A DNA stretch of 64,000 nt from Prorocentrum cordatum (GCA_963575745.1 CAUYUJ010000213.1:1-64000); one strand, 5' to 3'; shown: positions 5,967 to 60,147, counted from the stretch's first letter. Made by a program: numbers and translations. The notes: generated by a model from the letters alone, not told the origin.

Positions 5967-6079
5967 TCCTACCCTTTCGTTCCCGCCGATTGAGTCCACT
6001 GCCCTTGCTCGCACCCCCGCGTTCCCACCCCTGCTCCCTCCTCCTGTGAGGGTGGAGGGAGGTCGAGAGTTGAGGGCCG

Positions 6080-38690: not shown

Positions 38691-38734
<44 letters not shown>

Positions 38735-39063
38735 CATATATATACATATATATACTCTGATGGCGTGTGTGCTTCGATCGCGGCGCTGTTCCTCATGTCC
38801 AGCCTCAAGGTAGTGTGGGTGGGCGGGAGTCGTCGGGCCCAGGGGCCGAGAGCGGAGCCTAGACGAGAAGCTTTCCCCCGGCAAGAGGCCAAGACTTCCT
38901 GGGGCCCGCGGACTGAAGACGCGACCCTCCTCGGGTAGGAGATCGACTGTCGAATCGATCTGCCCAAGAGGCTGTCCTTCCAGGGTCCGGCGCTAACACG
39001 GGTTATCGGACTCCCCCCCCCTTCCCCGGATAGCCTCACCCTTTCGGTTGAGCAGGTTTAGAC

Positions 39064-39257
39064 TGAAGTCGGGCCTGTCCCCTCTACAGGGGGATCTTCG
39101 AGGGAAAATGCAAGATATCCCCAACAATATCAAAAAATAGTCCAAACCTAGTCTGGGGACTGTTTTTTTAGTATTTGTTTTACCTTTTTGGAGTATTTTT
39201 GGGGTATTTCTTAGTTTTCGTCGAAAACACCCCTGTAGGGGGACACGCCCGACATAA
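39064..39257. mobile_element. MITE family E, TSD GTTTAGA(C/T)
   Basis: Same TIR and AT-rich core as 5777-5966. Confidence 0.85.
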
Positions 39258-41994: not shown

Positions 41995-42066
<72 letters not shown>

Positions 42067-44544
42067 AGCAGGAGGAGAAGGATCAGGAGGATGTTGGGTG
42101 TGTGGACAAGACACATGATGGGGGAGCGGGGGTGGGGCGAGCAGGAGCGGGAGGAGTGGGATGCGTAGGAGGAAGAGGGAAGAAGGCAGGAAGAGGGACG
42201 ACAGGAGGTGGATGACCGAGGAGGAGTTGAGGGAGAGGGAGGATCAGGAAGAACAGTAGGAGGAGGAACGCGAGGCTGCAAATGAGGAGGAGCAGGAGGA
42301 GGACGGAGGGACTATGAGGGGGAAAGAGGGAGGAGGTGCAGGGAGGATCGACGGGAGAGATGCGGTCGCGGAGCGTCGGGCAGAAGCAGGAAGAGGAGCA
42401 TTTCCGGGAGGACGAAACGGAGAGGGTTCACCGCTGATACTCGGAAGCCGCCCCTGCCGCCACGGAGCGGGCGTTCGAGCACAGTGGCCCCTCTCTCTGC
42501 ATCGCCGGCGAAGGTGGAGCAGCTGGGCCCCCTGCTGCTGGAGCAGGGGCTGAAGGAGAAGCAGGCCCCGACAAGGGGGGTCATCGTCGGCAATCGTCCT
42601 TGGATGGGCTTGGGCTTGCGCACGGGTGAGCATTGATGGACGTTGGTCATTGAAACAAAGTTCACAGGGTTTCTCGCCAATTTCGTCCTCCCAAAGCTTT
42701 TCCCTGCGACCCAGGACCATGAAACAATGGCTCTGGATGATAATCCGATTCTGGGGAAGGACCCGTTTCCACCAGGACCCACTTATGATTTCATGCCATG
42801 GCAGAGAGCCCTCGTCTCACCACGCGAAGCGCCCCAGAGGCGTCGCCGGAGTCGGCGCGGTGGTGTTGAAGTTGCCTCGGACGACCCTTGTTGAGGCCAG
42901 GCTGGGCTACCTCCAGGGGCTTTTCTTTGCGTTGCCCGAAGCCCGAAGCGTGGAAAATGCTCCTCGCCCTCGTCGTCTTCGTGGTTGCCCTCCTTGTCCT
43001 CATCCTTGTCGTCAACGTGCTCGTGCTCGTGGTCGTCGCCCCCACCTCCCGCCCGCTGTGGCGCGACTTTGGCCAGCTGGATTCAGAAGGAGGTGACAGG
43101 GGGTCCAGAGCGGGAAAGAGGATTTGTTGGAGCACGTTTGCTGCAATTCCTGCTTCCTGTCTCTCCCCTGTCCCCTCCCATCAGCAGTCCCTTTTGCTCA
43201 CGCTTCCACTGTTCAGTGGTTTCTAACCCTTGGCTGTAGCGCCATGCCGCACTTCGAGAGGTCCCTTTGCCTTTTGTCCGTCTCGGACGTCCCCTCGTGA
43301 CCGCGCGCCGACTGTTGGGCACATCAAAGGAGCGTTCAGTCGTTCACGTGTTCGTGAATGCCTGCAGCGTGTTCCCAGTCCAACGCGATGACGGACGTTA
43401 AACCGGGGGGGGAGGGGGGGCGGTGGGCCGGTGATGCCACGTTCCGCGCCTGCGCCGTCTGGGAATGCCCAGGGACGGCTCGAGACACCTCGGCACCTCG
43501 GAGGTCAGCGCCAGTCGTGACGTTGCCTAGCGGGGAGAAGCGAGGGGCGGCCAGGGCGGGTAACGGCCGCTGTCGCGAACAGAAGACAGCAACGATGTTT
43601 TGAGCGTTGCTTCCCGGGTTTCGCCGCGCTTCGTCGAGGTGGTAGTGAAGCGGCGCGCAGGTCACCGCAGGGGGTGACGTCCTGGGGTGGCCGTGAGGGC
43701 GCAAATTCTCACGCTTGCGGAGCCGATTGCGAAGGGAGAAGTGGTGCATGTGCGACGCTCCCGTTGACGAAAACACATCGCGGGGTCCTTGGGTAGGTTT
43801 CTTCATGTCAGCCGACATCTGATTAGTATGGTTGTTCGCAGCAGACCTCGCCCCGCTCACAGGCCCGTGACCCCCGCAGTTGCGCCCGTCCGGTGCAGGG
43901 ATCGGGCGAAGCGCCGAGCCCTCCCCATCAACACGTCCAGGAGGTGTGCTCTGCACGGGGCTCGAGCTGAGCGGTGGTTGGGCGTTTTCGTAGACCCTTG
44001 TTGTTGTTTTGATGCCGTCCTGCACCAGAGGCGGAACGAAGACAGAACGAGGAAACAACACAAATCAAAACGAAGACGGAAGACATTGCTCAGCTCGAGC
44101 CCTGCCTCGACACGAGCGGGGGACGCGTGGATTGGTCGGACGGCCAGGCGGGGAAAGAGAAAGGGGGAAGTCTGCGGCCTGCAGCTGGCTTTCAGCCTGG
44201 CCGCCTGGAGCTCTTTCTCTTTGCACACTGGCGGAGGTGCTGGGAAGATCTGGTCCTCTCGTCCCACCCGAGTGGAAGGAGGGAGTGGAGAGGAGGGGAG
44301 GGAGGAGATGAGGGAGGAGAGGAGGGGGGAGGAGGAGGGAGTGGAGGGGAGGAGAGGAGGGATGCGAGGGGGAGGCGGAGGGAGGGGAGGAGGGAGGGGC
44401 CGGAGGACTTCCTGGTCCTCCTCGTCGTCCCCTTCCTGGTCGTCCTCCATTCCCTGTTCTTATAGATAACTCCTCCCTGTCGCACCCCGAGGCTGGTCGA
44501 AAGGGCGGGCCGGGCGTTTCGCCTGATCCTCACCAGTTATGACT

Positions 44545-44892
44545 CGAATGCTGCAAAGTCGGCAACAGTTTCACGGATTGAGGGCGGGTCGTTTTCAACA
44601 TGTGGTTCTCGCTTTAGCGCCGCGCGCATTCGTTTTAAACATTTGCAAGAGTTTCGCGGCTCGAGGGCAGGCCGTTTTTCAAAATGTGGTTCTCGCTTTA
44701 GCGCCGTCGTTTGAAACAAGTTTGAGGAGATTCACGGATTGATGGGGGGTCGTTTTCAAAGTGTGATTCTCGCATTAGCGCTGCGCACACTCGTTTAGAA
44801 CAATTGCAAGAGTTTCGCGGATTGAGGACGGGTCTTTCAAGATGTGGTTCTAGCGCCGCTCACATTCGTGTCAAACATTTGCAAGAGTTTCG
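44545..44892. repeat. Diverged tandem repeat with ~70-90-bp units
   Basis: AGTTTC(A/G)CGGATTGAGG...TGTGGTTCTCGCTTTAGCGC recurs about four times. Confidence 0.7.
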
Positions 44893-46179
44893 ATGTGTCC
44901 CAGGTCTAACGTACCAGACATATGTTTAGTGGAACGATTCAGGATATCCAGGGCGCAACAGTTTCGTTGATTCGTTGTGTTGCAGTCCCAGGAATCGTGT
45001 TTTGACACGATTCAAGATCGCCAAGTCGTAACAGTCAGGTTAATTCGGGCGTTGAAGTCCTGAGAGGGGTGTTTTGGCACGTTTCAAGATGTTCACAGGG
45101 TTGTCCCCCAACGGGGCAATGCCCTCAGTGGAAACGACCCCTTGTGGGGGCCTGTGAAGAGGGATCTTGGAGGGAGGGTGCACCCCAACATCGTCGACGA
45201 GTCTGAGGCTTACACTGGTCCTCCTCCTCCTCCTCCCCGACCCTCCCTCCTCCTCGATCCTCACTGCTCCTTCTCCCTCCACTTCCTCCTTCTCGACCCT
45301 CCTCCTCCTCCTCCTCCTCCTCCTCTTCCTCTTTCTCCCCCCCCCTCCACCCCGGCACCCGCTGCGGCAGCGGCCGCGGAAGGTGGCCGCCCTCGCCAGG
45401 GCCATCGCCCGCCTCGGTTCCGCCTCGGCGCCGGCACGGAGCAGGGCCGAGGCCTCGGCGGCTGGAGAGCAAGGAGGGAGGGAGGGGGGAGGAGGGAGGA
45501 GGAGGGAGAGGAGGAAGAGCAGGAGGAGGAGGAAGAGGAAGAGGAGGAGGAGGAGGAGGAGGAGGAGGAGGAGGAGGAGGGAGGAGGAGGCAGGAGGAAG
45601 AGGAGGTGGAGGAGCAGGAGGAAGAGGAGGAGGAGGAGGAGGAGGAGCAGGAGGAGGGAGAGGAAGGACGAGGAGGAGGAGGAGGAGGAGGAGGAGGAGA
45701 GGGTAGGGGGTGGAGCTTATCTTTCACGAAGATCCTACAGCCGATCACACCAGTGACCCTGGTTGTCTAGTTTGATCAGCCTCTCAGGGCCAACCGGCCC
45801 GGGGTGGGGAGGGCTGCGTCCGGCCCACCCGGGAGCCACCCCTGGCACGCCCCGCGCGCCAGGGAAGGGGGATCCAGGCGCCGATCCAAGAGATCCGTGT
45901 GGAGCTCCGAAAGTTTATGTTCACGTTGTTTCTTGCATCTCTAAGGGTGGGAGGGTAGGTCTGCGTCGTGTCGGCCAGAGGCGACCCCGCCGCAAAGCGT
46001 TCCACGTTGGACGCCGCCGCAGACCCAGAACCGTTCGATGTTGATCGATCTGGCATTTCGGAACCGGCCGATCGTGCAAGGTCGAATGATCCCCGCGGCG
46101 TCAGGAGCCATCGCCGCGTCCGACACGGCACGAACCCGCGGTAAGTGCGTTACCGCCATGTCCTATATTAGATATTGGT

Positions 46180-46935
46180 ATATGTATGCACATGCTTATG
46201 TGTATATATGTACGTGTGTAGGTCGGTAGGTAGGCAGACCTGTGTGTTTGTATGTATGTTTGTATGTCTGTATACATACATGCATGTATGTATGCCTGTA
46301 TGTATGTATGTCCGTATTTTTTATTTATGTATATATGTATTTCTGTACTTTTACATGTATGTATGTATGCATGCATGTATGTATGTCGGTAGGTCGGTAG
46401 GTATGTATTTATGTATGTGCGTATGTATGTATGTATGTATGTATGTATGTATGCATGCACGCACGCACGCACGCACGTATGTATGTATGTATGTATGTAT
46501 GCATGCATGCATGCATGTATGTATGTATGTATGTATGTATGTATGTGTGTGTATGTGTGTATGTATGTATGTATGCATGTATACATGCATGTGTGTATAT
46601 ATGCATGTATGAATGTATGTATGTATGCACAGATGTAAGTATATAAGTATGCATGCATTCATGCATGCATGCATGTATGTATGTATGCATGCATGTATGT
46701 ATGTATGTATATATATATGCGTATGTATGTATATGTGTATGTATGTATGTATGTATGTATGTATGCATGCATGCATGCATGCATGCATGCCTGCATGTAT
46801 GTATGTATGTATGTATGTATGTATGTATGTATGTATGTATGTATGTATGTATGTATGTATGTATGTGTGTATGTATGTATGTATGTATGTATGTATGTAT
46901 GTATGTATGTATGTATGTATGTATGTATGTATGTC
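46180..46935. repeat. (GTAT)n/(GCAT)n microsatellite
   Basis: Direct reading. Confidence 0.95.
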
Positions 46936-49166
46936 TGTTGGTATGCTGGTCTGTCTATATGTGTGTGCATGTGTCTCTCTCTCTCTCGTTGACCCCCTTC
47001 CATATTACGTTGTTGTTGTTCATGCATGCGCGCACGTGTGTCGTAGCCCACCTGGAACTCGGAGATGCGCAGTCGGAAAAGAAGAGTGAGGGGTGGTAGA
47101 TCTGGCGGGGCCAGGACGAGGATCAATCCGTTCCAGAACGTTCCGTAACACCCTCAGATCGTTTTGGAACGTTTCCAGAAGACCGCGGCCTCCAGGCATC
47201 TTTCAGAGCCGCCAGATCTCAGAGATTCTCGATTCATCCTCACCCGATTCTTTTCTCGGTTCGTCTTGGTATGGTATGAGTTCAGGGGCAACGGCAGGGA
47301 GGATGAGCATAGGGGGGATGCATCGACCCCCAATCGCCCATGGAACGCCGATATGGGCCCGGCCCCCCGAATCCTCCAAGACAGCTCAAATCAGACCCCC
47401 CCAAAAATGTGACCCCCCCACTTTATCATGGAATCTGGTGCAGTTGTTCATGCCCAGGAAGAGGTGAGTAGCTATGGCAGGACCACGTCTGCTGCCGACC
47501 GCATCGGTGTATATGACCAATGGGAGGGGGCCAAATGGGCTGGCATCGTCTCTGGGCGCGCGGCTGAAGTTGAATTCCACGCTCACGATTCTCGCCATTG
47601 TTCTTGCCCGTCCCATGACCGGCGACCTCGCCGACGGCCGTCCGCTGACCAGCACAGCCCACTGAGCGTGCCTCCCCTCGACGTGCGTCGTGCCTGCAGT
47701 GCATGCGTCGTGCCTGCAGGTCGGAAACATCGACCTCTTCCCCACTGCCTCCTCCTCCTCCTCATATGCTCCTCCTCCTCCTCCTCCTCCTCCTCCTCCT
47801 CCTCCTCCTCCCTCCTTTCCTGCTTCCTCGTCCTCATCGTCTTCCGCTTCGCTCCCCCCTCCCCTCTCTCTTCCTGCCCCCATCGCCGATATGGGCCCGA
47901 TAGCCCGCCATGCCTTGGAACGTGCGGTCTTGCCATCGGGGGCCTGCCGGTCGCCGATTTGTCGGAAAATGTACTGCCGATTTCAGGTCGATGTTATCCC
48001 CCCCCTAAGTTGGCCATCCCCCCTGTCTTTCCCCCTCAGATGGGCAGTCCTTGTCATCGGCCGAAGCTCCTCATCGCATCAGCGATCGTTGGCTGGTCGG
48101 ATCGTCGAGGCACCCCATGGCTCGAGGTTTGCCAAGAGGGGGTGGACGACTAGGGGGGCGTGGATATCATGGCCAGAGCCATGATGTCTTCCCAGATGTC
48201 ATGTCCCCTCCTTCTGTTGATCGCTTCGCTCATTCCGCCGGCCCATGATGTGGGATCGCTGGCTTGCCCGCGCGTTCGTTGCCCTTGTTGCGCTGGTGGG
48301 CGGTGGTCGTTTTCCAGGGGCGTTTCGTCAGCAGTGTTGGAGTTGGAGCAATTCCGGTGTAGTTATTGGGGGGTGGCTTGTGTGGGGGCTGTCATGGGTA
48401 TGTGGCACCATCGTGAGTTGGGCTTGTCACCCATGGAGTTGTGCTTGTGACCCATGGAGTTCCGCTGTTGGGCCATTCGAGTGCTTGTTTTGGGACTTTG
48501 TTCCGCCCGCTCTACGGGTCCCCCGTATGGCCCACCTGTTGGAGCTGTCTTCGGGGCCTCTTGGGCCGTCTTGGAGGCCTCTTGGGCCGTCTTGGGGCCA
48601 TCTTGGGCCGTTTTGGGGCCCTGTTTGAGCCTCTTGAGCCGTCTTTGGGCGATCTTGGGCCGTCTTGGAGCGCTGGAAAACCGAAAAGGCGAGAGCGCAA
48701 ACATCCTTCAACAATCCAGGGGAAATCTATATTTTTTGCCTCCAGGTGCCCTCTTTGGACCCTATTGCAGGCGTGTTCGGGCATCTTGGAGGCCTCTTGG
48801 GCCGTCAGGAGACCACAGTGAGCGTCTTGGACGTATCGGTCGGCGACTCAGAGCCCTCTTGGACCGTCTTGGGGACCTCTTGGGTTCCTCTTGGTGCGCT
48901 CTGTGGAGCCTGAAAGGCCATCTCTGATCCGACGTTGCCTGGCTTCACTCGGGGTACTTTCGTTCGGGGACTCCAAGGGCCGCGTCGCGCGCGCGAACTA
49001 AAAAATTATTGTACCAGTTGCAGGATTTCTTTACACGCCTCAAGCCCCTTGGACCGGCGAATTTCAATACGTTCCCTGGTCCCCCCCCTGTTCCGCGCAC
49101 GTGCGTCGGGCAACGATTTTCGACCACCTCTTGGACGCCCCCCTTTTGAACGCCCCCAATGGCGAG

Positions 49167-49336
49167 GCTGCTTCGCCGGCGTCCACGGCGCTTGTCAGCA
49201 GAGGCGGCGGCGAGCCGGGCTCGATGCTCTGCTGCGTGCCTGATATCATTTTGATGTACATGGGCAGCACCGATCTGCTACTCAAGGGCACCACGTTCTC
49301 GCTTGCCAGGGGCCACCGCTACGGCGTCGTCGGCAG
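49167..49336 (+). CDS. eEF3-like exon: start of ABC1 to the Walker A N-half
   Basis: LCCVPDIILMYMGSTDLLLKGTTFSLARGHRYGVVGR, followed by an AG|GA donor. Confidence 0.85.
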
Positions 49337-52300
49337 GAATTCGCAGAAGCAAAAACAGCATAAACATACACTTTCGGAGCTTCGCGCGGGTTTCTTGAAT
49401 CGGCGTTGGGCACCCCCCCCAGCGGCGCTTCTGGCGCCGCCCCTGGCGCGCTCCGCTCTCCAGGGAGGGGGTCCTGCACCGATTCAAACAAAATCCACGT
49501 GGGGGTCCGAAAGTCCGTGTCTTCTTATTCTAGGAATGGCACGGGCAAGACCACGCTCATGCAGCGCATCTTTCGGTAGCAACTCTTGGGAGCATATCCT
49601 CGTACTTTTCTGGAGCGCATTGCGTTGATCAGCGTCTGGTGCTCGATGAGTGCGCCGATTTAGCTTCGGCTGGCGTGGCTGAGCGTCAGGGCCCGTCGAC
49701 TCAGCGACAAACAGCGTCGAGGAGCGTCGACCAGCGTCGAGCAGCATCGGTTCGCAATAGCCCACAAGATGGTATGGGGAGGCCCCTCCGAGCTGCCGCC
49801 GAAGCCTCGCGGACGGGGCCATTGCGGAGCTCGCCGCCAGCGGGCTGCGGTTCGTGCACATCCGCCACGAGGCCCTGGGCGACGAGGCGGACCTCGCCGC
49901 GCCCGCCGAGCACTTCGCCCGCGGGGTGGTGTGGCCGCCCGGGTGCCCCCGCCCGCCCGCGTACGCGGAGGACCCGCTGGAGCTCGCCTTCGAAGAGGTC
50001 AGTGCGCCCCTGGCCCTGCAGGGTCCTGCAGGATGCGGCGCCCTGGCCGACCCCCGTTTGCATTGACCCCCGTCTCGAGGCTCCCGACGAGGCAGCACGG
50101 GCAGGGGCCCGGGGCGGAGGAACAAAAGCGGGAGGTGAGCCGCAACGGCGGCCACCCCCAAGCGGGGCAGCGCGGACAGGGCCGAGGCCACCCTGCAAAG
50201 CGCTGGGGCTGCGGGAGCGGGCACCACAGCAGGAAAAGTCGCTTAGATCGTAAATCACGAAAGCTTCGCCCGTCTTTGGATTGAGTGTACCTCGGCGAAT
50301 GGCGCCCAGTGGTGCCCAAGAGTGTTCAATCGCGCTCCATAGCGGTTCTTAGCGCCCAAATGACGCCTATTTAGGCCCAGCAGCGACCAATAGCTGGAGC
50401 TCGTCTTCGAACAGGTCACCTTCGAAGAGGTCGCCCTCGAAGAGATCGGCTTGGAGCCGTCTGGGAATCTGAGGTGGCCCAGCCTTGGATCCAGCCAGCA
50501 AGAAGGGCGGGCAGGTTCGAGGTTCTGGGTTCGGGAAGGTATTTCTTTACCTTTCCGTCTCTGGGGGCCGTTTTTTCGGGCCCCGGGAACGTCAAAAACA
50601 GTCCGGCCGGGGTGGACATTTGCACCAGATGGGCGTGGGGGGGGGATCCGGAGATAAATTTTGAGCGGTTTGGGCTTCAGTCCCTCTCCTGACCGATTTT
50701 CTGGGGTCCCCACCAGTTCAGTCCCCCCGGAGAGCCTCTACCCAAAATGATGAAAGAACACACAGGAAATGGACGTCCAAGCGATGGCCAGTCTCCCGAC
50801 CGCCTCCAAAGGTCGGCTTCTCCGAGGAGCTCCGGCGCAGGCCGCTCCGGGAGCTGTCGGGCGGCTGGCGCGTGCGGCTCCTGCTGGCCACGGCGGTCGC
50901 CCGGCGCGCGGACGTGCTGCTGCTGGACGAGCCAACGAACCACCTGGACAGCCAGGCGAAGGACTGGCTCGCCTGGTGGCTGACCAGCGACCCACGAGGC
51001 GTGTTACGTTGCATCTTCGGGGGACCTGGCCTGTCCCCAAAATTTGCGTCTTTTCTTATACCCGACACGGGCTCGATGCGGACTCGACGCGGATTCGGCG
51101 TGGATTCGACGCGGATTCGACACGGATTCGACACGGATCCGACGAGTCCGACATGGATTCGACACGGATTCGACGCGGAGCAGGCCGCGACGGGACAGAC
51201 AAGGTCCCCCGAGGATGCAACATAAGGCGTGACCAGCATGCTGGTGTCGCACGACCGGCAGTTCCTGGACATGGATCAGGGGCAACGATAGGGGGGACAG
51301 GCACAGGGGGGGATACATCGACCCCCGATCGCCCATTGGTCGCCGACAGGGGCCCGATAGCCCGAACCTGCCCAGGAAGGTGCGGATTCACGATCGCAGG
51401 CCTATCGCTGATCTATCGGCGATGTATCGCCGATTCCAGGTCGATGCATCCCCCCTATGCTCAGGAGGGAAAGAAACACACATACACAATTACTGTCGAC
51501 TCCCAAGAAAACATAGGGAAGTATGGGAATTGGGGGGGAAGACGAAACCACAGAAAATATGAGGAAATATAGGGAATCATGTTATTTGTGTGTATTTATT
51601 TGTGTGTCCTTGGGCCCCTTGATATGCCAGTCCCCCCCTATCGTTGCCCCTCAATGGAAGACGAACAACTTGCGTAACCACCAGCTTCCGGAGCTCCGCG
51701 CGGGTCTCCTGCATCGGCGCTGGCCCCTCCCCCCCTGGCGGCGCTCCCAGCGCCGAGACCCCGGCCAGGGGCGGGAGCCCTCCGCCGGTCCAGGAGATCC
51801 GCGAGGAGCTCGGGACGTCGAATGCGTATGCAGTTCTAGTCGATGCTGTAGGACTCCGAAGGCTCGGGGGCGGACAAGAGGGGGGTGATGACTAAGGGGG
51901 GGGTGGATATCATGGCGTGGGCCATGATTATTTTTCCCCAGATTTCATGGCGCCTCTTCTTATTTCATCACGTCCCTGGCCCCCCCGCTGGGCCGCGCAC
52001 ATGCCGCCTGTCATGATTTGCCCCCCCCCCTCTTGGACACCCCCCTCTTGGCCGCTCCCGAGAAGTCTAATGCGTACGCAGTTCTAGTCGATCCTCTGGG
52101 ACTCAGAAGGCGAAAACCCACCCCCACCCCCAGTCCCGAGGCCTATCCCCGAGCCGGTGATTCAAGGGGTCGGGACTGGGGGTGGGGGTGGGTTTTCGCC
52201 TTCCCAAGGACAGCGTCTGCACGGACGTCATCCACTTCGAGGACTGCCAGCTGAGATACTACGCTGGCAACTTCTCGCGCTTCCAGGAGCAGGCTGGGCT

Positions 52301-55300
52301 GGTCGGCGACGCGGCGGCGGAGGCCGTGTTGACAGTGCGCGGCGGCGGCGGCGCTGCGGCGGCCGCAGGCGTTCGGTCGTCCGCGCGCGTGCCAGCGGTC
52401 GGCGCCGAGCGCGCGGTTGAGACCGTGCCGCCGAAGATGTTGTTCCCGATCCCAGGTAGATCGGAGGAGGGCCATTCTCAGAGGAGGGCAAGGCAGTTAC
52501 CCGTACCGCTACCCTCGCCTCCTTTTCCCCCTCTTGGGCCTCCCGGGAGGCCCTGGTCGCCGCCGGCGGAGTCGCCTCGCTGGTCAGAACGCACCCGGGA
52601 GCGGTCTGGGGAGTAGCGGTATTGGTGCTTTCTGAGTTCCCCACGCTCGATGCTCGTTCCTGGGAGCCTTGGGCGGCGACATTGAGGTCAGCCGTTATTT
52701 GTATCTGGACCGCGTTGAAACTGCATGTGGCCCTTCCTGTTCCTCCTATCCCTCCTCGTTCTTCTCGCCCTCCTTGTGAATAGGCGAATCTGGTTCAAAT
52801 CTGGTCCCGAATTCGATCCAGGTCCAGTCCAAATCAGGCCCAAATGGGACAGCGTTGGGGGCCAGGCAAGTTCCCATGGAACGGGCACCACAGGGCCACT
52901 CGAGAACGGCGGCCCTCGTTTGCCTTTTTCGTTCTTGTTGGGACTCGTGGAGGCTTCTCGTCGCCACGACTGGATCCGCGTCGGAAAACGGGTCGGGATG
53001 GGCTCTGCATGGGCTGGGCCTGGCGACCGGTTTTGAGCGGATGTGGGCTTGGCGGGAGGGCGGCCGTTCTCTCTGACGACCTTCCTCCGAGTAGAGTCGA
53101 GGGCGTGTCTAACTCCAAGAAGAGTGTGATAGACATCAAGGGTGCCTCGTACAGATATCCGAGCGCGGCCAGCTATGTGTTGATCGACGTGTGTGCCAAG
53201 GTCACCATGTCGAGCAGGGTGGCCATCATCGGACCGAATGGCTCTGGCAAGAGCACGCTCCTGGCGCTGCTCTGCGGCGAGATCAGGCCTTCTCCTGACG
53301 AGAAGGGCGGGGTTGGTGAGGTCAACCGGCACAGGGCTTTGAGACTGGCGTACATCTCGCAGAGCCACGCCTTCCACCTGGCTGACTACGCCCGTTGCAG
53401 CGCGGTGCAGTACGTCCAGCACCGCTACCAGAACGGGTACGACGAGGAGCTCCAGAAGAGGCTGAACTCGCCGTCCAGCGAGACCGAGGAGGCGGCTTTG
53501 GCCTCCCTCGCCCGCAGGTTCGGGAAGTCTGGCAGCAGGGTCGAGGCGGTCGTCTCCCGCACGAGGCGCCGCGGCGAGTGGAGGTACGAGGTCCAGTGGC
53601 GGGACCTCTCGGAGAAGCAGAACACCCTGGAGCCCCTGGCGACACTGCGGCGGCTGGGCGTCGAGAGGATGGCGACGGCGCTGGACGAGCGGCTGGCGGC
53701 AGCGCAGGCCGGCACGGACGACAGGCCGCTGACCCAGAGGGAGATAGTGAAGCACTTCGAGAATTTCGGCCTCCCGGAGGAGCTCGTGGCCAACAGGGCC
53801 GTCGGCAGCTACTCGGGCGGCCAGAAGTCGAAGCTCATCCTCGGGGCGGCCCTCTGGACCAAGCCGCACGTGGTGTGTCTAGACTCGGCGGCGAGCGAGG
53901 GGGGGAAGTGAGAAGCAGAAGGCCTTTCAGAGGGCGGTGGGACTTCTCTCAGAAGCCCTCGCGCCTTCTGAGAAGCTTTGTCTGTGTCTTCGGGGAAGGC
54001 TTAAGTCGCGCGTGCCCCCCTACAGGGGGAATATCCAGAAATAATACAAAAATAGTCTGGGGACGGGTTGTTTTACTATTTTTGAGTATGTGGTGGGCAT
54101 GTTTTGGTTTTTTGTTATATTTGTCGCCCAACATCCCCCTGTAGGGGGACACGCCCGACCTAAGGGAAGGCTTAGAACACTTCTCAGAAGGCCAGGGGCC
54201 TCCCGAGCCTCTTGAGGAGGCCTTCGCCGTCTCGCTTCTTCCCCCCCCCGCCCACCGCCGACGGACGAGCCCACGAACTTCCTGGATGCCTCGGGCTGCA
54301 CGCCTGCGACCGCCGAGCGCCGCCTCCCCGGCTGCTCCGGGCCCCCATGCGCTCTGGGTGCGTCCGGCCTCGTCCTCGGGGGGCTCGGGGCGGGGAGACT
54401 CGGCGGCGAGCGAGGGGGGGACGCGAGAAGGAGAAGGCCTTCTCAGAAGGCTCGGAGGTCCCCGAGAAGTTTTCTGAGCCTTCCCCGAAGACACAGGAAA
54501 CTTCTCAGGCGCGAGGGCTTCTGAGAGGTCCCGCCGCCTTCTGAGAGGACCTTCTGCTTCTCACTTCCCCCCCCCCGCTCACCGCTGGGAGACAAGAGAG
54601 GGGAGACCGCGTGGGCCGTCAAGGGCAGGACGGGGACGTCACAGGGGTGCTTGCATGAGGAGCTGGGCGAGCGGCATGGTCGGCATGTGGTGTGGAGTTC
54701 CTACTTCCAAGGACTGGGTGGATGATTATTGTGGATCCCCCGCCCGACGGTGCCCATTTTGCGATTTTGTCCATGCGCCCCCCTGGTGCTAGCATGCAAA
54801 TTGTGTTACTAGAGCCCCCTGGCTACAGCAACTGCAGTCAGTGTTATACTTTGTGGTCTCATCGGCTTGCGTGTAAAGCAGCACATCAACATGTATATCC
54901 TGAACCCTCGATACCCGCCCTCGTCGTCTTCGACTGTATCCCCTCGGTTGTGTGTCTGCCTGACTTGCCACGTGTAGTAAGCGCAGGACGAGGAGTGAGA
55001 CAGGACAGAAAGAGAGAGATGGAGAGAGAAACTGAGAATGAGAAAGCGAGGAGGACAGCAGTGCGGGAAGGGAGCCACGAAGGGCATCGAAGGTGCTACG
55101 AGGGCAGGGACAGAGCTGCGAAAGGAAGGCGACTGCGGAACCACGATGGGCAGCGAGGGGCATCGAGGGCGGGCGAAGGGCAGCGACGGGCGACTGCGGT
55201 CCCTGACGAGCGGGTCGGGCGGGCGGATCCAGATGGTCGGGTCAATCGGACGGGTCGCTGAAGCGTGAGTCCTGCAGGCATGGCCAGGAAGTCTCCAGCG

Positions 55301-58300
55301 ATGGCGCCATTCCAAAGTAAATCTGGAGGACGTCCTGAGCAAGAGCGTGATTCCTGAGTGTCGAGGGCGTGGCGTCTGAATAATCGCTTTGAAGTCCCGC
55401 GCGAGAGCGCGATTCCTTGGAAGTCCCGAGCGAGAGCACGATTCTTCAATACATCGTGAGGAAGTATAATGCTGGAGCCGTGGTCGTTGTAGTTCGGGGG
55501 GGTCAGCACTAAATATTTTTCAGAATCGAAAGTTCGACGGCGCTGGACTGGGACTTCATTACGCTGTGCAATCCCGCTCGCGCCCGAGACCCTTCGGATT
55601 TTTGTACAAGAGCGGTCGCGGAAGGGGATGGAAGGCGATGGACGGCGATGATTAGGAGGGTGAATCGCATACAGAGGAAGGAAAGGAGGAGGAGAAAGCC
55701 GAGGACTAGGACGAGGAGTATGACGAAGAGGGGGAAACATGAAACGAGTTGGCAAAGGAGTAGGATGAGACGTGTAGTAATGATGATTCGTGTTATGTTT
55801 GAGGAGACGCCAGGAGGAAACGGTCGAGGAGGAGGAGGTGGAGGAGGGTCAGGCAGGTCATGTATAGGATGTAGATAATGAGGGTGGGAAGGGAGGCGAG
55901 GACGATAAGGAGGAGTAACATGCAGTCTAGGAGGAATAGCAGGGCATATTATGGATCTGATGAAAAAGAAAGTGAGGAGGGGAAGGGATGTGAAGGATGA
56001 CGAGGAGGAGGAGGAGTGCTAGTGATATGCAGAGGGGGAGGAGGAAGAGGAAGACGAGGACGAAGACGACGAGGAGGTCCAGGAGAAGGAACAGCACCGC
56101 CAGCACGATGATACGCGACATGGACGAGTTCGAAGGGGAGTGCCCGCCAGTACGGGGGCGTGCGGATTTCGAGACCGTTGCGGCGCTTTCCCGTGCGTTG
56201 CGCCTCTTCAGGGGCGGGGTCGTGATCGTGAGCCACAACGAGGACTTCCCTCCTCCGTCCCTCCCTTTCCCCCTCCCTTCTCCCGCTCCCGCCGCCGCGT
56301 GTTTTTTCGCCTGCTTCCCGTCCCTCATGTCCCCTCCATCACCACCTCCGTCATCGCCGTGTTTCTCCATCCCTTCATCCTGCCTCCTCCTCCTTCTGTC
56401 CATCTTTCCGCTCTCCTCCTCATCCCTTTTCCTCCTTGCCCTCCCCCCCTCGCCACCCTCGTCCGTCCCCCCCTGCCTCGTGCCCCTGCTGTTTTCCCCC
56501 CTGCCCACCTCCCCTTCCCGTCCATCTGCTCCTTTCCACCAGCTGTATCCCCTCCCTTCCCCTCGGCACGGCACGACGCATCGGCACGGCCCCCCTTCCC
56601 TTCCCCTCGGCAAGTCAATGGGCCAGTAGACGCGACTTCGAACGGGCGGAATTGCTTGCCCCGGAGATCCCCACATGCGAAGGTTGGCATTTCGTGTGTA
56701 TATACAGATATGTATCAGAAGATAGGGGGGGAATTCCGGGGGCCGGGAGCCCTGGAGCGCACTGGTTCGGTACCCTCCTTTTTTGGACCCGTCGGGGGGC
56801 GCCAGAGGCGTCAAAGGAGGGGAAGGGGGGCGACGAGAGGGCCCGAGACGGCATCGCCGCCACTACCCCCAGGGGAGGCATCAGGAGGGGGCGCCAATGG
56901 GAACATCAGGAGGGACACCCATATCAACGTCAGGTTCTTCAGGTTCAGCATTGGTCCTGACCAAGATTCCATTGATGACTGGGTGGGGCAACTTCCGCAG
57001 CTCGGCGAACTTCTCACTGCTTTGCGTCTGCTTGTGGTGCTCGGCCATGTCGGGGTCGGCTGCCGCTGCTTTGGCACCTGCGGCCTTCGCCAGGAAATCC
57101 TCTGGCCTGGCCTGCCAATGCGGTGCAGCTTGCTCCGCGCGCGCTTCGCCTCGTTGCCGGCGGATCTGCGCTGCGTTTTCTTCGGCCTCCCGCTCCAGCA
57201 CTTCGATCTCCTGAATCATGTCCTCTGTCGCCGACTGATTGCTAGGTATGTCCGCCCGAAGCTGGGCGGGCATCTTGTTGTAATCGGCGGCCTGTTGTGT
57301 CCGCGACACTTCTTCCGCTCGGAATGGGGCGCCTTGCGTGCTGGACTTGGCGGCCGCAACGCGCGACGCTGGCTTCGCAAGTCTTATTCCACTCGCTTAC
57401 GGGCGCCAGGAAAAACATGGTCATATTCGTCGGCGAAGCTAGCACATTTGATGAGCAGTCCTAAGTTGCAATAAGTTGCAATCCGTTTGTGCAACGCGTC
57501 GCGCTTGGCAGCGGGCTGGTCCTTCTCATTCTCATCCTTGTCGACCGGGTCGGTGCTCGGTGGGACGACGTCGTTTTGTTTTGTTTGTTTTTCTCGCTTT
57601 GGCGTCCGCTGACATGGTCCCGAGTTGCTGCTGCATGGCTTTCTACTCGGAGTTCCACGGCGCGGGCGTAGGCTCCCCCCCTTGAGTCAGTCCCGCCGAC
57701 TTCACAGGGTTGGAGCACGCTGCTGCTCCAAGACTGTGGCTGCCTTCCGCGCTTGGACAGTGATGAACTGCGGGGCGGCATCGCCGCATCTGCATTGAAC
57801 TCTGCTCGCCCAGTTCCTGGGGGTGCCACAGCGAGAGCCCCCCCACGTTCCGCAAGCCGGGCGAAGGCTGGCGAACCCGGGGTTGCTAAACCGGAGTTCC
57901 GGGACATTGATTGGCGCGTTGGGCTTTCTTCTGGGAACGTGTCTTCTTGTTCTGTCCCTACCTCTTTGTTAATTCAAGCTTCGCGCGGCCCGCTTAGCTT
58001 CGACCGGAAGAGGTGCGCTTTCGACTTGCGAATCCAAAAAAATGTCTTTTTGTTCCGGGAAGACCGTTTTAGCAGCCACGGATTTGCCAGCCCTCGCCCA
58101 GCTTCCGAACGTTGGCTTTGTCAGGCTTGGTGGTCGGGGGCCGTCCTGCGCCATGGCACCGGCGACGAGGACGTCGGATCGCCACCTGCGCAGGGCGGCG
58201 CACACGCTTGCGCGCCGCGGGGCAGGGGCGGCCCGCGCACTGAGGTTGTCCTGGCCCTGGGCGAACGGGCCGCACATGTTGAAGGCTGCCGCGGATGGGC

Positions 58301-59071
58301 GGTGCGTATCCGCTTGGTCCCCGCGGGGACCTCGCATCTTGAGCCAGCGTGGCCACGGACTTCGAGTGATCAGGAGGGGAAAAACACACAGACACAATGA
58401 ATCGCACATTCCGAGGAAAATGGGAAAATATGGGAAGTGGGGGGGGCGGAAGACAAAAACACAGGAAATATGGGAAAATATGAGGAGTCATGCTATTCGC
58501 GTGTATTTATTTGTGTGTCCCAGGACCCCTTTAAGTGAGTGCGACCACTGGTGAGTCTGAGTGCGAGTAAGTCTGAGCGTGAGCGCGTCTGGGTATAATC
58601 AAGTGAGTCTGTCAGCGAGTCCGAGCATGGGGCGAGTCTGGGTGCGGGTGCGGACAGGGAGGAAGAGCGGGGACTATGGAGTGGGAGGCGGAGGCACAAC
58701 GCTAACGATAAGGACTACGTGCATAGCCGGCACATCGGATACAGATGACATGCATGCGCAGCACATGAACAACACACGCCAGAGCTTTCAGTCCATGCCG
58801 GTCGGCAGTCAGGTGCAAATTAGGACGAAGACGAAGGTGACGGCGAGGGGTGCACGGATGTGGGGGAGAAGTGCTGTCAGGGAGGATGGCGGGGGAGATG
58901 GGGCGAGGCGTGGGAGGCGCAGCAGCGGAGGAGAAGGAGGTGGAGGTGGAGGAGGAGGAGGAGTAGGAGGAGGAGGAGTTGGTGGCATGGGAAGCGTGCC
59001 TTGGGGTTCCTCGCACACGCGTGCGTCCGCAGGACTTCCTCGCCGAGGTCTGCAACGAGATCTGGAGTGTG
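49167..59071 (+). CDS. eEF3: eEF3/New1-like ABC-F ATPase (tandem ABC domains, chromodomain-like insert), multi-exon, 5' end unresolved
   Basis: Manual exons: 49167-49336, 49534-~49567, ~49805-49925, 50163-50201, 50812-50998, 51227-51267, 52209-52455, ~53091-53881, 54264-54284, 56165-56242, 59033-~59071. They join to RYGVVGRNGTGKTT...VHIRHE...LQSVGF..LSGGW..LLLDEPTNHLD..LVSHDRQFLDSVCTDVIHFEDCQLRYYAGNFSRF..FPIPGRVEGV..SRVAIIGPNGSGKST..AYISQ..YEVQW..YSGGQKSK..VCLDEPTNFLDFETVAALSRALRLFRGGVVIVSHNEDFLAEVCNEIWSV, colinear with eEF3 motifs. Confidence 0.9.
50812..50998 (+). CDS. eEF3-like exon: ABC1 signature and Walker B
   Basis: VGFSEELRRRPLRELSGGWRVRLLLATAVARRADVLLLDEPTNHLD; AG acceptor, GC donor. 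Confidence 0.92.
51004..51225. mobile_element. Introner-like TIR element forming the GC-AG intron 50999-51226, TSD GGCGTG
   Basis: TTACGTTGCATCTTCGGGGGACCT...AGGTCCCCCGAGGATGCAACATAA. GGCGTG at 50998-51003 and 51226-51231. Internal GGATTCGAC(A/G)C repeats. Confidence 0.9.
51461..51622. mobile_element. MITE family B, TSD TATGC, inside an ABC-gene intron
   Basis: TATGC at 51456-51460 and 51623-51627. Homologous to the other family B copies. Confidence 0.85.
51864..52061. mobile_element. MITE family F (TCGGGGGCGG.AAGAGGGGGGT...ACCCCCCTCTTGGCCGCTCCCGA), 50-bp flanking duplication
   Basis: 51814-51863 vs 52062-52111 match at 43 of 50 positions. Confidence 0.85.
52209..52455 (+). CDS. eEF3-like exon: end of ABC1 and linker
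   Basis: DSVCTDVIHFEDCQLRYYAGNFSRF...MLFPIP; AG acceptor, GT donor. Confidence 0.9.
53091..53881 (+). CDS. eEF3-like exon: ABC2 with chromodomain-like insertion
   Basis: GPNGSGKST; RVEAVVSRTRRRGEWRYEVQWRDLSEKQNTLE; RPLTQREIVKHFENFGL; YSGGQKSKLILGAALWTKPHVVCL. Confidence 0.95.
53885..54261. mobile_element. TIR element (family G) filling the intron inside ABC2 Walker B; second copy 54400-54588 with TSD GAGAC
   Basis: TCGGCGGCGAGCGAGGGGGGG at both left ends; CCCCCCCCGC(C/T)CACCGC at both right ends. Confidence 0.8.
54001..54163. mobile_element. MITE family E, TSD GGGAAGGC, nested in an intronic TIR element
   Basis: GGGAAGGC at 53993-54000 and 54164-54171. Confidence 0.85.
54264..54284 (+). 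CDS. 21-bp micro-exon DEPTNFL (ABC2 Walker B end and D-loop)
   Basis: GACGAGCCCACGAACTTCCTG supplies exactly the residues missing between VCL and DFETV. Confidence 0.85.
56165..56242 (+). CDS. eEF3-like exon: ABC2 H-loop
   Basis: DFETVAALSRALRLFRGGVVIVSHNE; AG|GA donor. Confidence 0.9.
56881..57309 (-). pseudogene. Helical, coiled-coil-like ORF remnant, possibly retroelement ORF1
   Basis: Protein-like composition (EDMIQEIEVLEREAEENAAQ...EKFAELRKL), antisense inside an intron. No diagnostic motif. Confidence 0.3.
58370..58533. mobile_element. MITE family B, TSD AGTGA
   Basis: AGTGA at 58365-58369 and 58534-58538. Homologous to the other family B copies. Confidence 0.8.
59033..59071 (+). CDS. 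eEF3-like exon DFLAEVCNEIWSV
   Basis: CAG acceptor; 9-bp junction repeat AGGACTTCC is shared with the previous exon end. Confidence 0.85.
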
Positions 59072-59093
59072 CTCCCTCTGCTGCTGCTTCTGC

Positions 59094-59134
<41 letters not shown>

Positions 59135-60147
59135 CAGCCGCTGCTGCTGGCCGCTCCCGATGCTAATGCGGGGGCGCCGCAGGCGGCGGCAGCATACGAC
59201 GACGTCGCCTAGCGGCGATGACCACGATGAGGGTGGCGACGATGGCCCTGAAGATGACGGCGATGAGGTCGATGTTCATGTTTGTGATGGGGCATCCTTT
59301 ACGTGGACGTCGACCGCCAGCACGATCATGGATTGTGGTGGTGAAAGCGACGGCGGCGCAGTTGGCGACGATGTGACCGTGACGGCGAATGTGATAATAA
59401 TCATGGTGATGCCGATCATTGTGATGACAGGAGTTGGTTCGCCTTGATGGGCAGCACGACTACCCAACCAATTTGGGGAGAGGGGGAGGGACATGCACAA
59501 GCGCAGCACGATTGGGGGTTGCGAGTAGGGGGGGTAGGACGATGGAAACAGAGCACCACGAGAAGACGGAGGACGAGTGCGCTCTAGGTTTGTATGAGCT
59601 TACTTGGGGCTTCAGGAGGGGAGGGGAGGAAATGCGTTCTGCCCTACTCCTCCTTCCTTGTGTTCCTTCCTGGTTCACCTCCCTCCTGCCTCCTCCCCGT
59701 CCTCCTCCTCCGTGCAGTCGGCCGACGCTGCCAGCTCAAGATGCCCTTGCGTCCTGTGCCGCGCGGCCCATGCCTTCTTACACTCCTGTGGCGATGCGGC
59801 CCCCCGAGGGGTCCTGTGTCCTCTCGCGTGTCCCGTCCAATCCAGTCCCACTGTAGCTGTTTCGGTCCACGCCTGTTGGCTCAAGGACCTGTCGTCTCGA
59901 GGTGGCCTGTCCTCGGTGTCACCCCAACATACTTACACTATGTGTGCATCCCCCCCGGGGGTGACGCGCGCACCGAGCAATATTATAGTGTATGCGTCGT
60001 GGCGGGTGCTTTCTGGCCACGCCGCTCGGGAAACGCCATACTGAAATATAGGTATACTATATATATATATATAGATCTGTATATATTGTATATATACACA
60101 TTTGTGCATATATATATATATATGTATATTCGGGTCGGACGCGCGTT

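What the first reader, a model, noticed from the sequence alone, without database searches (positions are those of the whole stretch)
52456..56164. Three consecutive introns of an intact ATPase gene cannot be precisely removed with an AG acceptor
Seen: restoring the conserved residues needs introns 52456-53090 (GT..GA), 53882-54263 (GA..CG) and 54285-56164 (GA..CG). Sliding within the junction repeats (GTAGA, GAC, GGAT) gives no GT/GC/GA..AG pair. The first two introns are TIR elements. The nearest canonical alternatives would delete GR from FPIPGRVEG, replace the Walker B Glu (CLDSPTN) or delete FE. The intron after TTLMQR (~49568-49804, TIR CTTCGGTAGCAACTC/GAGCTGCCGCCGAAG) looks similar. The exons have no stops although the TIRs and TSDs have visibly diverged. 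Known: non-canonical introns with inverted or direct repeats occur in Amoebophrya and euglenids. Inference: relaxed or structure-guided splicing coexisting with GA/GC-AG introns in the same gene.
Basis: partly seen in the sequence, partly recalled or inferred. Interest (0 to 1): 0.82.

Follow-up and report, generated by a model that had tools for sequence, protein, structure and literature searches.

The report
Transposon-made introns lacking AG acceptors
In a translation-factor-like gene of the red-tide alga Prorocentrum cordatum, four introns are small jumping-gene insertions that can be cut out exactly only at ends that break the usual splicing rule; the gene looks alive and expressed, but I saw no RNA read across any junction.

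Summary
The sequence facts hold. The window is Prorocentrum cordatum. The gene is an eEF3/New1-like ABCF ATPase, ATG 37362 to TGA 59374, with at least 14 exons.

Homology fixes 10 exon junctions. Six have a G[C/A]..AG register among the best-scoring ones. Four do not: 49571-49808, 52456-53090, 53882-54263 and 54285-56164. The last three have normal donors (GT, GA, GA) but end in GA, CG and CG.

Introns 52456-53090 and 53882-54263 are TIR elements with short flanking direct repeats. So is 50999-51226, which does splice as GC-AG.

A transposon landing in an exon always looks like this, so the anatomy alone does not prove odd splicing. The support is indirect:
- the coding sequence is intact, with GC3 0.90 against intron GC 0.60;
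- 222 of 235 family-invariant columns are kept;
- no second P. cordatum copy appeared in the protein searches;
- five runs hold 0.24-0.25 of the stretch's words, matching the exon-only share of 0.246.

GA 52467..AG 53101 costs only Val to Ser. GC 54295..AG 56150 inserts seven residues.

No reads could be laid, so the junctions are unseen. My odds: precise non-AG removal 0.5, nearby canonical sites 0.25, dead copy 0.15. This resembles Amoebophrya introners and dinoflagellate repeated intron boundaries.

The parts
37362..59376 (+). eEF3/New1-like ABCF ATPase gene of Prorocentrum cordatum (short ~700-aa dinoflagellate form), at least 14 exons, ATG 37362, TGA 59374-59376
   Evidence: tblastn and HMM hits of dinoflagellate homologues laid along the window. 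Pfam ABC_tran, plus Chromo at 24 bits, just under its cut-off. PDB New1 1.5e-47 and eEF3 1.2e-41. P0121, named Prorocentrum cordatum by NCBI, is 100% identical to the big exon.
52209..52455 (+). exon ending ...KMLFPIPG (last base is the first base of the Gly codon)
52456..53090 (+). intron J6, 635 nt. It is a TIR element (TCGGAGGAGGG 52461-52471 / CCTTCCTCCGA 53080-53090) between two copies of GTAGA. It reads GT..GA in this register. An in-frame canonical rival is GA 52467..AG 53101.
   Evidence: Fold z -0.98.
53091..53881 (+). large exon: second ABC domain with Walker A, chromodomain insert and signature, ending ...HVVCL
53882..54263 (+). intron J7, 382 nt, GA..CG. The outer element has 24-nt TIRs (53885-53908 / 54238-54261). 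The flanking repeat is GAC, or TAGAC/CGGAC if 5 bp. A second palindromic element is nested inside at 54000-54164.
   Evidence: The RNA fold closes at the intron ends, -208 kcal/mol, z -8.15.
54264..54284 (+). 21-nt micro-exon DEPTNFL (Walker B Asp-Glu)
54285..56164 (+). intron J8, 1,880 nt, GA..CG, boundary repeat GGAT, no significant terminal inverted repeat. It holds a second copy of the J7 outer element and long purine-rich tracts.
54397..54590 (.). sibling copy of the outer element of J7, flanked by GAGAC on both sides
   Evidence: 86-91% identity to the J7 ends; sequence read
56165..56242 (+). exon DFETVAALSRALRLFRGGVVIVSHNE
49571..49808 (+). intron J2, 238 nt. Its registers are TC..CC, CT..CT and TT..TC. 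It has a weak TIR (TCGGTAGCAACTC / GAGCTGCCGCCGA). Its removal restores TLMQRI|ADGAIAEL.
   Evidence: Fold closes at the TIR but z is -0.26.
50999..51226 (+). comparator intron J4: a TIR element (24-nt arms, 0 of 300 shuffles as good) with boundary repeat AGGCGTG. Here one register is a regular GC..AG.

Best explanation
Four exons of the P. cordatum eEF3/New1-like ATPase gene were split by small non-autonomous DNA transposons that make short target-site duplications. These insertions now act as introns.

The element plus one copy of the duplication is removed from the pre-mRNA, which restores the conserved motifs. Removal starts at ordinary dinoflagellate donors (CAG|GT, CTA|GA, CTG|GA). It ends at a boundary that lacks AG (GA|G, CG|G, CG|G).

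I think the most likely agent is the dinoflagellate spliceosome with a relaxed demand at position -2 of the acceptor. The 3' boundary would be chosen with help from the repeated boundary sequence and, for the palindromic elements, from a hairpin that brings the two ends together.

Shown here: the insertions, their repeats, the intact and conserved reading frame, and runs that hold the exon words but not the intron words. Inferred: that the RNA is joined exactly in these registers, and by what machinery. For 52456-53090 alone I rate a canonical GA..AG 11 nt downstream as about equally likely.
For: 1. Homology fixes the junctions. The same method recovered a G[C/A]..AG register in the top tier at 6 of the other 7 determinable junctions.

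2. Each canonical alternative breaks a near-universal feature. Val to Ser hits a site where 119 of 120 homologues have L/V/I. Glu to Ser hits a site where 120 of 120 have Glu. The third alternative is a 2-residue deletion or a 7-residue insertion at a site where 114 of 120 have residues.

3. The gene looks alive. It has no stop in 1,722 nt. It keeps 222 of 235 invariant columns (0.945; homologues 0.945-0.991). GC3 is 0.90 against intron GC 0.60.

4. It looks single-copy in the annotated proteome. Three searches found only P0121 at 100% identity. The next best hits are 71% or lower, and those that carry a species name are from other species.

5. Five runs of one organism label, from two studies, hold 0.24-0.25 of the sampled 31-mers of 52100-56300, and four runs of a third study hold 0.20. 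Exon-internal words are 1,026 of 4,171, or 0.246. Retaining intron 2 would give 0.34 and intron 1 would give 0.41. Only 8 words recur elsewhere in the window.

6. The donors match those of the six regular introns of the gene. J7 and J8 keep G as both the first and the last intron base.

7. J7 folds into one long hairpin that closes at the boundaries, z -8.15.

8. The NCBI model P0121 starts at the first in-frame Met of the big exon. It ends with an out-of-frame read from AG 56150. That is what forcing canonical sites on non-canonical junctions would produce.

9. Mendez et al. 2015 (PMC5032977, sections 11 and 15 read) report that dinoflagellate 3' sites 'always' carry GG but only 'often' AGG.
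Against: No RNA read or transcript across any of the four junctions was seen.

The word shares do not say which words are held. Most of those runs are RNA only by the tool's guess. The shares cannot tell precise junctions from canonical ones 6-11 nt away (0.245 against 0.246).

Precise excision restoring the frame is true of every transposon insertion in an exon, so the anatomy is no evidence for how the RNA is processed.

J6 has an in-frame GA..AG alternative with an AG|G context at both ends, at a cost of 3.4 bits. J7 has a GC..AG alternative at a cost of 3 bits.

J6 in the GT..GA register does not end in G, and no J2 register starts with G. One 'relaxed position -2' rule therefore does not cover all four.

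J6 and J2 do not fold better than shuffles. J8 has no significant terminal inverted repeat.

The age of the insertions rests on a few mismatches in short repeats.
Confidence: 0.5

Rival explanations
1. The insertions are spliced by the ordinary dinoflagellate rule at the nearest G[T/C/A]..AG pairs. The mRNA would then encode a slightly altered protein: QRIFRLADG, PGRSEGV, LDSPTN, and FLDTVAAL or FLDASVRGRADFETV. The exact-excision registers would be only a historical trace of the insertions.
For: In-frame canonical pairs exist near all four junctions. Those at J6 and J7 have the same length as the precise intron and cost only 3.4 and 3 bits. J6's alternative has AG|GA and AG|G contexts like the six regular introns. 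This reading needs no new machinery. The word shares fit it equally well (0.245). The published pipeline, which allows only these sites, did produce a model using GC 53888.
Against: It removes the Walker B glutamate that 120 of 120 homologues keep. It puts Ser where 119 of 120 have L/V/I. It changes the length of two tightly conserved loops. Meanwhile the rest of the protein keeps 94.5% of invariant columns. The alternatives at J7, J8 and J2 have boundary repeats of only 0-1 nt by my reading of the boundary sequences printed, while all ten determinable junctions carry 2-9 nt. The annotated model built with these sites is frame-broken on both sides of the big exon. The gene appears to be the only annotated copy.
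Confidence: 0.25
2. This copy is a gene recently disabled by transposon insertions. It is transcribed but its RNA is mis-spliced or decays. Alternatively, the matching RNA words come from an identical, insertion-free copy that is missing from the assembly or its annotation.
For: Dinoflagellate genomes are rich in duplicated genes and active MITEs (PMC10666404, passages read). Four insertions in conserved motifs of one gene are easiest to fix if the copy is dispensable. J6 has a perfect 5-bp duplication and a 10 of 11 TIR, so it looks young. No whole genome was available to exclude another copy. The database gene model is a 251-aa fragment.
Against: There is no stop or frameshift in any recognised exon from ATG to TGA. 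GC3 is 0.90 against 0.60 in the introns. Retention of invariant columns is within the range of expressed homologues. J7 is a nested element whose 5-bp duplication matches at only 3 of 5 positions, and J2's repeats have decayed, so they are not brand new. No second P. cordatum protein turned up, and P0121's cluster has 1 member on 1 contig. The runs hold essentially all exon-internal words at exact 31-mer identity and no surplus.
Confidence: 0.15
3. Assembly or consensus errors turned three AG acceptors into GA, CG and CG.
For: None was found. It remains possible in a 4-Gb repeat-rich draft, and raw DNA reads could not be checked.
Against: It needs independent errors at exactly three acceptors. 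It does not explain J2. The last bases of J6 and J7 belong to terminal inverted repeats that pair with the 5' arm (TCGG...CCGA), so the present bases are the expected ones.
Confidence: 0.04

Closest known systems
Non-canonical introns and introner elements of Amoebophrya sp. A25/A120 (Farhat et al. 2021, PMC7789003; passages read)
   Same: Both are dinoflagellate introns with 8-20-nt inverted repeats at the ends and 3-5-nt direct repeats over the exon/intron boundaries. Both form hairpins that join the exon ends, have no fixed terminal dinucleotides, and coexist with canonical introns.
   Different: Amoebophrya is a parasitic syndinian in which U1 snRNA was not found, and more than 60% of its RNA-supported introns are of this kind. 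Here the host is a free-living core dinoflagellate and the sample is four introns of one gene with no junction reads. Three of the four keep ordinary GT/GA donors.
Introner elements reported in P. cordatum itself (Dougan et al. 2023, PMC10666404; passages and Supplementary Note read)
   Same: Same species and the same definition (inverted repeats of 8-20 nt plus direct repeats of 3-5 nt within 30 nt of the intron ends), found in 2.4% of annotated introns. Intron 50999-51226 of this gene is a plain example.
   Different: That survey could see only introns annotated with GT/GC/GA..AG, because every mapper and predictor was restricted to those sites. Introns without AG are not mentioned in what I read. 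The large supplementary tables could not be opened.
Identically repeated intron boundaries of dinoflagellates (Mendez et al. 2015, PMC5032977; abstract and sections 11, 13, 15 read)
   Same: In both, 2-9 (up to 11) nt are repeated at the two ends of each intron and kept once in the mRNA. All ten determinable junctions here show 2-9 nt. That paper's 3' sites 'always' have GG but only 'often' AGG, which fits CG|G at J7 and J8.
   Different: That paper reports AGG at every 5' site. Here the 5' sites are CAG|G, CTA|G and CTG|G. It does not link the repeats to transposons or inverted repeats.
MITE-derived non-canonical introns of the tunicate Fritillaria borealis (Henriet et al. 2019; seen only as summarised in PMC11282704)
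   Same: Species-specific introns with inverted repeats and non-GT-AG ends are reported to be removed by the major spliceosome.
   Different: It is an animal lineage whose dominant ends are AG-AC and AG-AT. Splicing there was shown experimentally; here it was not.
Canonical introners of Micromonas, Aureococcus, Polarella and Symbiodinium (PMC9860276, listing only; PMC12130899 and PMC11282704, passages read)
   Same: Transposons with TIRs and target-site duplications create introns on insertion.
   Different: Those elements supply one splice site and build the other from the duplication, so the ends are GT/GC..AG. The four introns here have no such pair in the exact-excision registers.

Membership tests
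eEF3/New1-type ABCF ATPase | Two ABC nucleotide-binding domains with Walker A, signature and Walker B motifs | tested here: met
   Pfam ABC_tran hits on 53093-53884 (4.9e-16) and 50812-51003 (1e-08). GRNGTGKTT, LSGGWRVR and LLLDEPTNHLD are in domain 1. GPNGSGKST, YSGGQKSK and CLDEPTNFLD are in domain 2 of the rebuilt protein.
eEF3/New1-type ABCF ATPase | Chromodomain inserted in the second ABC domain | tested here: inconclusive
   Pfam Chromo scores 24.0 bits against a cut-off of 25.1. The stretch aligns end to end with the chromodomain-bearing region of New1 (6s47) and eEF3 (7b7d).
eEF3/New1-type ABCF ATPase | N-terminal HEAT-repeat domain of fungal eEF3 (protein of ~1,050 aa) | tested here: not met
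   The closest homologues are 650-747 aa, and the part before domain 1 is about 110 residues. This is the short dinoflagellate form, so I call it 'eEF3/New1-like', not eEF3.
Introner element as defined by Farhat 2021 / Dougan 2023 | Inverted repeat of 8-20 nt and direct repeat of 3-5 nt within 30 nt of both intron ends | tested here: met
   Met for J6 (inverted repeat 8 perfect, 10 of 11; direct repeat 5), for J7 (inverted repeat 24 nt, direct repeat 3) and for the canonical J4. Not met for J8 (7 nt at offset 13, 48 of 300 shuffles as good). Marginal for J2.
Introner element as defined by Farhat 2021 / Dougan 2023 | Belongs to a multi-copy family | tested here: inconclusive
   The J7 outer element has one sibling at 54397-54590 (86-91% identity). 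Its inner palindrome has partial copies near 5.8, 23.7, 34.8 and 39.1 kb. J6 has only a 72% partial match at 41802-41934. Only 64 kb could be searched because no genome is held.
Amoebophrya-type non-canonical intron | Non-GT/GC/GA..AG junction supported by RNA reads | not testable with these tools
No same-species transcript product is in the protein collection or in the metagenome contigs.
Dinoflagellate identically repeated intron boundary (Mendez 2015) | 2-9 nt identical at both boundaries, kept once in the mRNA | tested here: met
   All 10 determinable junctions show it: 3, 6, 2, 3, 7, 5, 5, 3, 4 and 9 nt.
Dinoflagellate identically repeated intron boundary (Mendez 2015) | Splice point between GG at the 3' site and inside AGG at the 5' site | tested here: not met
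   J8 has G|G at both ends but TGG/CGG, not AGG. J7 has G|G only at the 3' end. J6 has AG|G only at the 5' end. J2 has neither. The six regular introns of the gene do meet it.
U12-type (AT-AC) intron | AT..AC ends (or GT..AG) with the long conserved U12-type 5' splice-site motif; this definition is recalled, not taken from a call | tested here: not met
   No register is AT..AC. The AT..AG register of J6 starts ATCGGAGG.

The most novel reading that the evidence does not exclude
Core, free-living dinoflagellates, and not only the parasite Amoebophrya, may have a splicing route that removes inverted-repeat transposon insertions exactly, whatever their terminal dinucleotides. The route would be guided by the repeated boundary and/or the hairpin. 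Exon insertions of such elements would then be nearly neutral. Published dinoflagellate gene sets built with enforced G[T/C/A]-AG rules, including that of P. cordatum, would systematically truncate or frame-break the affected genes, as appears to have happened to this one.
Probability: 0.4. Interest if true: 0.72.

Novelty: new member of a known kind. Interest (0 to 1): 0.55.

Why it matters
If the junctions are as inferred, the non-canonical introner splicing known from Amoebophrya extends to a bloom-forming core dinoflagellate with a 4-Gb genome. That would bear on three questions: how these genomes tolerate heavy transposon traffic, how new introns arise without ready-made splice sites, and how far the 3' splice-site rule can be relaxed.

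It also has a practical side. The database protein for this locus is a 251-aa, frame-broken fragment of a roughly 700-aa conserved ATPase. Gene catalogues built with fixed splice rules may therefore under-call such genes.

If the junctions turn out canonical, the locus is an ordinary case of transposons landing in a gene, and the interest is low.

Tried and rejected
1. RNA reads. No junction, depth or strand information exists, and this is the main gap.

2. Same-species transcripts as proteins. Three searches with the big exon, in the longer, near and shorter length classes, found only the genome-derived fragment P0121. No transcript-derived product above 71% identity appeared.

3. Metagenome and metatranscriptome contigs. 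Only 2 of 562 candidate stretches were relatives, each at 55% identity over 33 residues. They were of no use.

4. Whole genome. None is held, so copy number and genome-wide element families could not be measured.

5. Generality within the window. None of 131 long ORFs outside the gene has a usable Pfam domain; there were only two low-complexity hits. No second gene could be tested.

6. Earlier notes of this scan. Four look-ups gave nothing relevant.

7. Junctions Ja (37.4 to 42.5 kb), Jc (45.4 to 49.2 kb) and J10 (59072-59319) lie in poorly conserved parts, and homology cannot fix them. J10's best registers are also non-canonical, about 10 bits above the best canonical one, but I do not count it.

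8. A U12-type reading and an assembly-error reading were considered and rated low, for the reasons in the membership and rival sections.

9. dN/dS could not be computed, because no nucleotide sequence of a close relative was available.

Full report
WHAT THE LOCUS IS

The window is GC-rich. The large open exon at 53093-53884 is 100% identical to an NCBI protein named 'unnamed protein product [Prorocentrum cordatum]' (P0121). The window is therefore from this bloom-forming core dinoflagellate.

The exon carries an ABC ATPase domain with a chromodomain-like insert (Pfam ABC_tran 4.9e-16; Chromo 24 bits, just under its 25.1 cut-off). It matches yeast New1 (1.5e-47) and eEF3 (1.2e-41) end to end in the structure database. 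The nearest relatives are 650-747-aa proteins from dinoflagellate transcriptomes at 61-69% identity.

I laid these homologues and an HMM built from nine of them on the window. The gene runs from ATG 37362 to TGA 59374 in at least 14 exons. No other recognisable gene lies in the window: none of 131 long ORFs outside it has a usable Pfam domain.

CHECKING THE OBSERVATION

For each junction I enumerated every in-frame, stop-free donor/acceptor pair within ±36-70 nt. That gave about 1,000-1,800 pairs per junction and about 4,350 at Ja. I scored the joined peptide against the nine-homologue HMM. Ten junctions are fixed by homology.

Six have a regular dinoflagellate pair among the top-scoring registers:
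- 42565-45382, GC..AG
- 49337-49533, GA..AG
- 49971-50811, GA..AG
- 50999-51226, GC..AG
- 51268-52208, GA..AG
- 56243-59032, GA..AG

Four have none:
- 49569/70/71-49806/7/8 (TC..CC, CT..CT, TT..TC)
- 52456-53090 and its five slid registers
- 53882-54263 and its slid registers
- 54285-56164 and its slid registers

The joined exons read FPIPGRVEGV and CLDEPTNFLDFETV. All nine closest homologues have P[VI]PGKVEG, and eight of the nine have CLDEPTNFLDFETV (the ninth has DMETV). Among the 120 listed homologues, 120 have Asp-Glu at the Walker B site and 119 have Leu/Val/Ile at the Val position.

- The nearest canonical alternative for the first intron is not the one that deletes Gly-Arg. It is GA 52467..AG 53101, which has the same length, is in frame, gives PGRSEGV and lies only 3.4 bits below the best.
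- The third intron also has an in-frame GC 54295..AG 56150 alternative that inserts ASVRGRA.

WHAT THE INTRONS ARE

Intron 52456-53090 is a TIR element between two copies of GTAGA. Its arms are TCGGAGGAGGG...CCTTCCTCCGA (10 of 11 complementary; 8 perfect at the exact ends; 15 of 300 shuffles did as well).

Intron 53882-54263 has 24-nt terminal arms, TCGGCGGCGAGCG.../...CACCGCCGA (88% complementary; 0 of 300 shuffles did as well). Its flanking repeat is GAC, or TAGAC/CGGAC if the duplication is 5 bp. A sibling copy of its outer part lies inside the next intron at 54397-54590 (86-91% identity) and is flanked by GAGAC on both sides. The middle of the intron (54000-54164) is a second palindromic element with partial copies elsewhere in the window. 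So this intron is one element nested in another.

Intron 49571-49808 has a weaker TIR that begins with the same TCGG...CCGA. Intron 54285-56164 has a 4-nt boundary repeat but no significant terminal inverted repeat.

Intron 50999-51226 of the same gene is the same sort of thing: 24-nt arms (0 of 300 shuffles as good) and boundary repeat AGGCGTG. There the repeat happens to supply GC and the element end supplies AG, so it can be spliced by the normal rule.

All ten determinable junctions carry a 2-9-nt identical boundary repeat. This feature was described for dinoflagellates by Mendez et al. 2015 (PMC5032977, sections 11 and 15 read).

WHAT THE ANATOMY DOES AND DOES NOT SHOW

A transposon that lands in an exon and duplicates its target always has this property: removing the element plus one repeat copy restores the reading frame. 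A given register is G[T/C/A]..AG by chance only about 1.2% of the time. The question is what happens to the RNA.

EVIDENCE ON THE RNA AND ON FUNCTION

I could not lay reads. What remains is indirect.

(a) The run index. Five runs carrying one organism label, from two studies, hold 0.24-0.25 of the sampled 31-mers of 52100-56300. Four runs of a third study hold 0.20. Two poly(A) RNA runs of 2014 hold 0.17-0.18. No run holds half or more. Words lying wholly inside the four exons are 1,026 of 4,171, or 0.246. Retention of the second intron would give 0.34 and of the first 0.41. Only 8 words of the stretch recur elsewhere in the window, so repeats do not explain the share. The simplest reading is mature RNA that matches this locus's exons exactly and lacks the introns. 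However, the tool does not say which words are held. Most of these runs are RNA only by its guess. Canonical junctions 6-11 nt away would give the same share (0.245).

(b) The rebuilt 574-residue protein (49218-59071) has no stop. It keeps 222 of the 235 columns that are invariant in the nine homologues (0.945). The same leave-one-out test gives 0.945-0.991 for the homologues themselves.

(c) GC3 is 0.90 against 0.60 GC in the introns.

(d) Three protein searches found no second P. cordatum product. P0121's cluster has one member on one contig.

(e) The database model P0121 begins at the first in-frame Met of the big exon. It ends ...VVCLDS followed by an out-of-frame reading from AG 56150. 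This is the expected outcome when software that accepts only GT/GC/GA..AG meets junctions that are not of that kind. The methods of PMC10666404 (passages read) describe such software.

MECHANISM

They read CAG|GTAGAT, CTA|GACTCG and CTG|GATGCC, against CAG|GAATTC, GAG|GACCCG, GAG|GCGTGT, CTG|GACATG and GAG|GACTTC. Two of them also end in G.

From general knowledge of spliceosome structure (recalled, not tested here), the first and last intron G contact each other at the second catalytic step. Position -2 contacts the branch adenosine. A CG acceptor therefore changes only the less central contact. Mendez et al. state that dinoflagellate 3' sites always have GG but only often AGG, which fits CG|G.

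The second intron folds into a single long hairpin that closes at its boundaries (-208 kcal/mol, z -8.15). This is the arrangement proposed for Amoebophrya introners (PMC7789003). The first and fourth introns can close at their TIRs but do not fold better than shuffles (z -0.98 and -0.26).

My best account is therefore spliceosomal removal with a relaxed 3' end, helped by the boundary repeat and, where present, by the hairpin. It does not cover everything. The GT..GA register ends in A, and no register of the fourth intron starts with G.

RIVALS

- Nearby canonical sites are used (0.25). This is cheapest for the first intron, where I rate it about even. It is costly for the others, because it removes the catalytic glutamate or changes loop lengths in a protein that is otherwise well kept.
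- The locus is a disabled copy, or the RNA comes from an unseen identical copy (0.15). The intact frame, GC3, invariant-column retention and apparent single copy argue against this. Without the genome it cannot be excluded.
- Assembly error (0.04). This is unlikely, because the offending bases are part of the inverted repeats.

COMPARISON WITH WHAT IS KNOWN

Non-canonical introns with terminal inverted and direct repeats are established in Amoebophrya A25/A120 (PMC7789003). Introner elements are reported in 2.4% of P. cordatum introns, but only among introns annotated with canonical ends (PMC10666404, text and Supplementary Note read; its large tables could not be opened). Repeated intron boundaries are known in Crypthecodinium and other dinoflagellates (PMC5032977). 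MITE-derived non-canonical introns are known in Fritillaria (seen only through the review PMC11282704).

My searches for dinoflagellate papers on introners and non-canonical or nonconventional introns turned up no report of non-AG acceptors in Prorocentrum or another core dinoflagellate. Roy et al. 2023 (Curr Biol) was not available to read.

If real, this is a new member of a known kind rather than a new kind.

VERDICT

One RNA alignment or RT-PCR would settle it.

Noticed in passing
window 53210-53887 and 56151-56225: The NCBI protein for this locus (P0121, 251 aa) starts at an internal Met of the big exon. It ends with 24 out-of-frame residues read from AG 56150 and skips the 21-nt micro-exon. 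It is a frame-broken fragment of a roughly 700-aa gene.
   Followed up: partly
window 50999-51226: This is a regular GC..AG intron of the same gene. It is a TIR element (24-nt arms, 0 of 300 shuffles as good) with boundary repeat AGGCGTG and an internal tandem array of roughly 11-nt GGATTCGAC-like units.
   Followed up: partly
window 54000-54164, with partial copies near 5770-5974, 23639-23744, 34806-35019 and 39068-39258: A palindromic element (31-nt arms, 90% complementary) is nested inside the TIR intron 53882-54263. It is dispersed in the window at 73-90% identity.
   Followed up: partly
window 59072-59319: The last determinable-looking junction (WSV | ARSWIVVVKA) also has only non-canonical top registers, about 10 bits above the best GT..AG. 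The region is too variable among homologues to count.
   Followed up: partly
window 51461-51620 and 51863-52061 (inside intron 51268-52208); copies at 3213-3375, 22686-22844, 23299-23458, 58367-58531 and 60501-60705: At least two dispersed repeat families (77-93% identity) populate the regular introns and the flanks of the gene.
   Followed up: no
window 47405-47493 (-): A marginal Rfam SNORA5 (H/ACA snoRNA) match, 32.2 bits against a gathering score of 30, E 0.007. It lies inside a long intron but on the strand opposite to the gene.
   Followed up: no
window 55670-56100 and 56250-56560; also 16000-18000: There are long purine-rich (GAGGAG-like) and pyrimidine-rich tracts. The 16-18 kb stretch has GC skew -0.5 and AT skew -0.67.
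   Followed up: no
window 49700-49750: A tandem 10-nt unit (GCGTCGAGSA-like, about 5 copies) lies inside intron 49571-49808.
   Followed up: no
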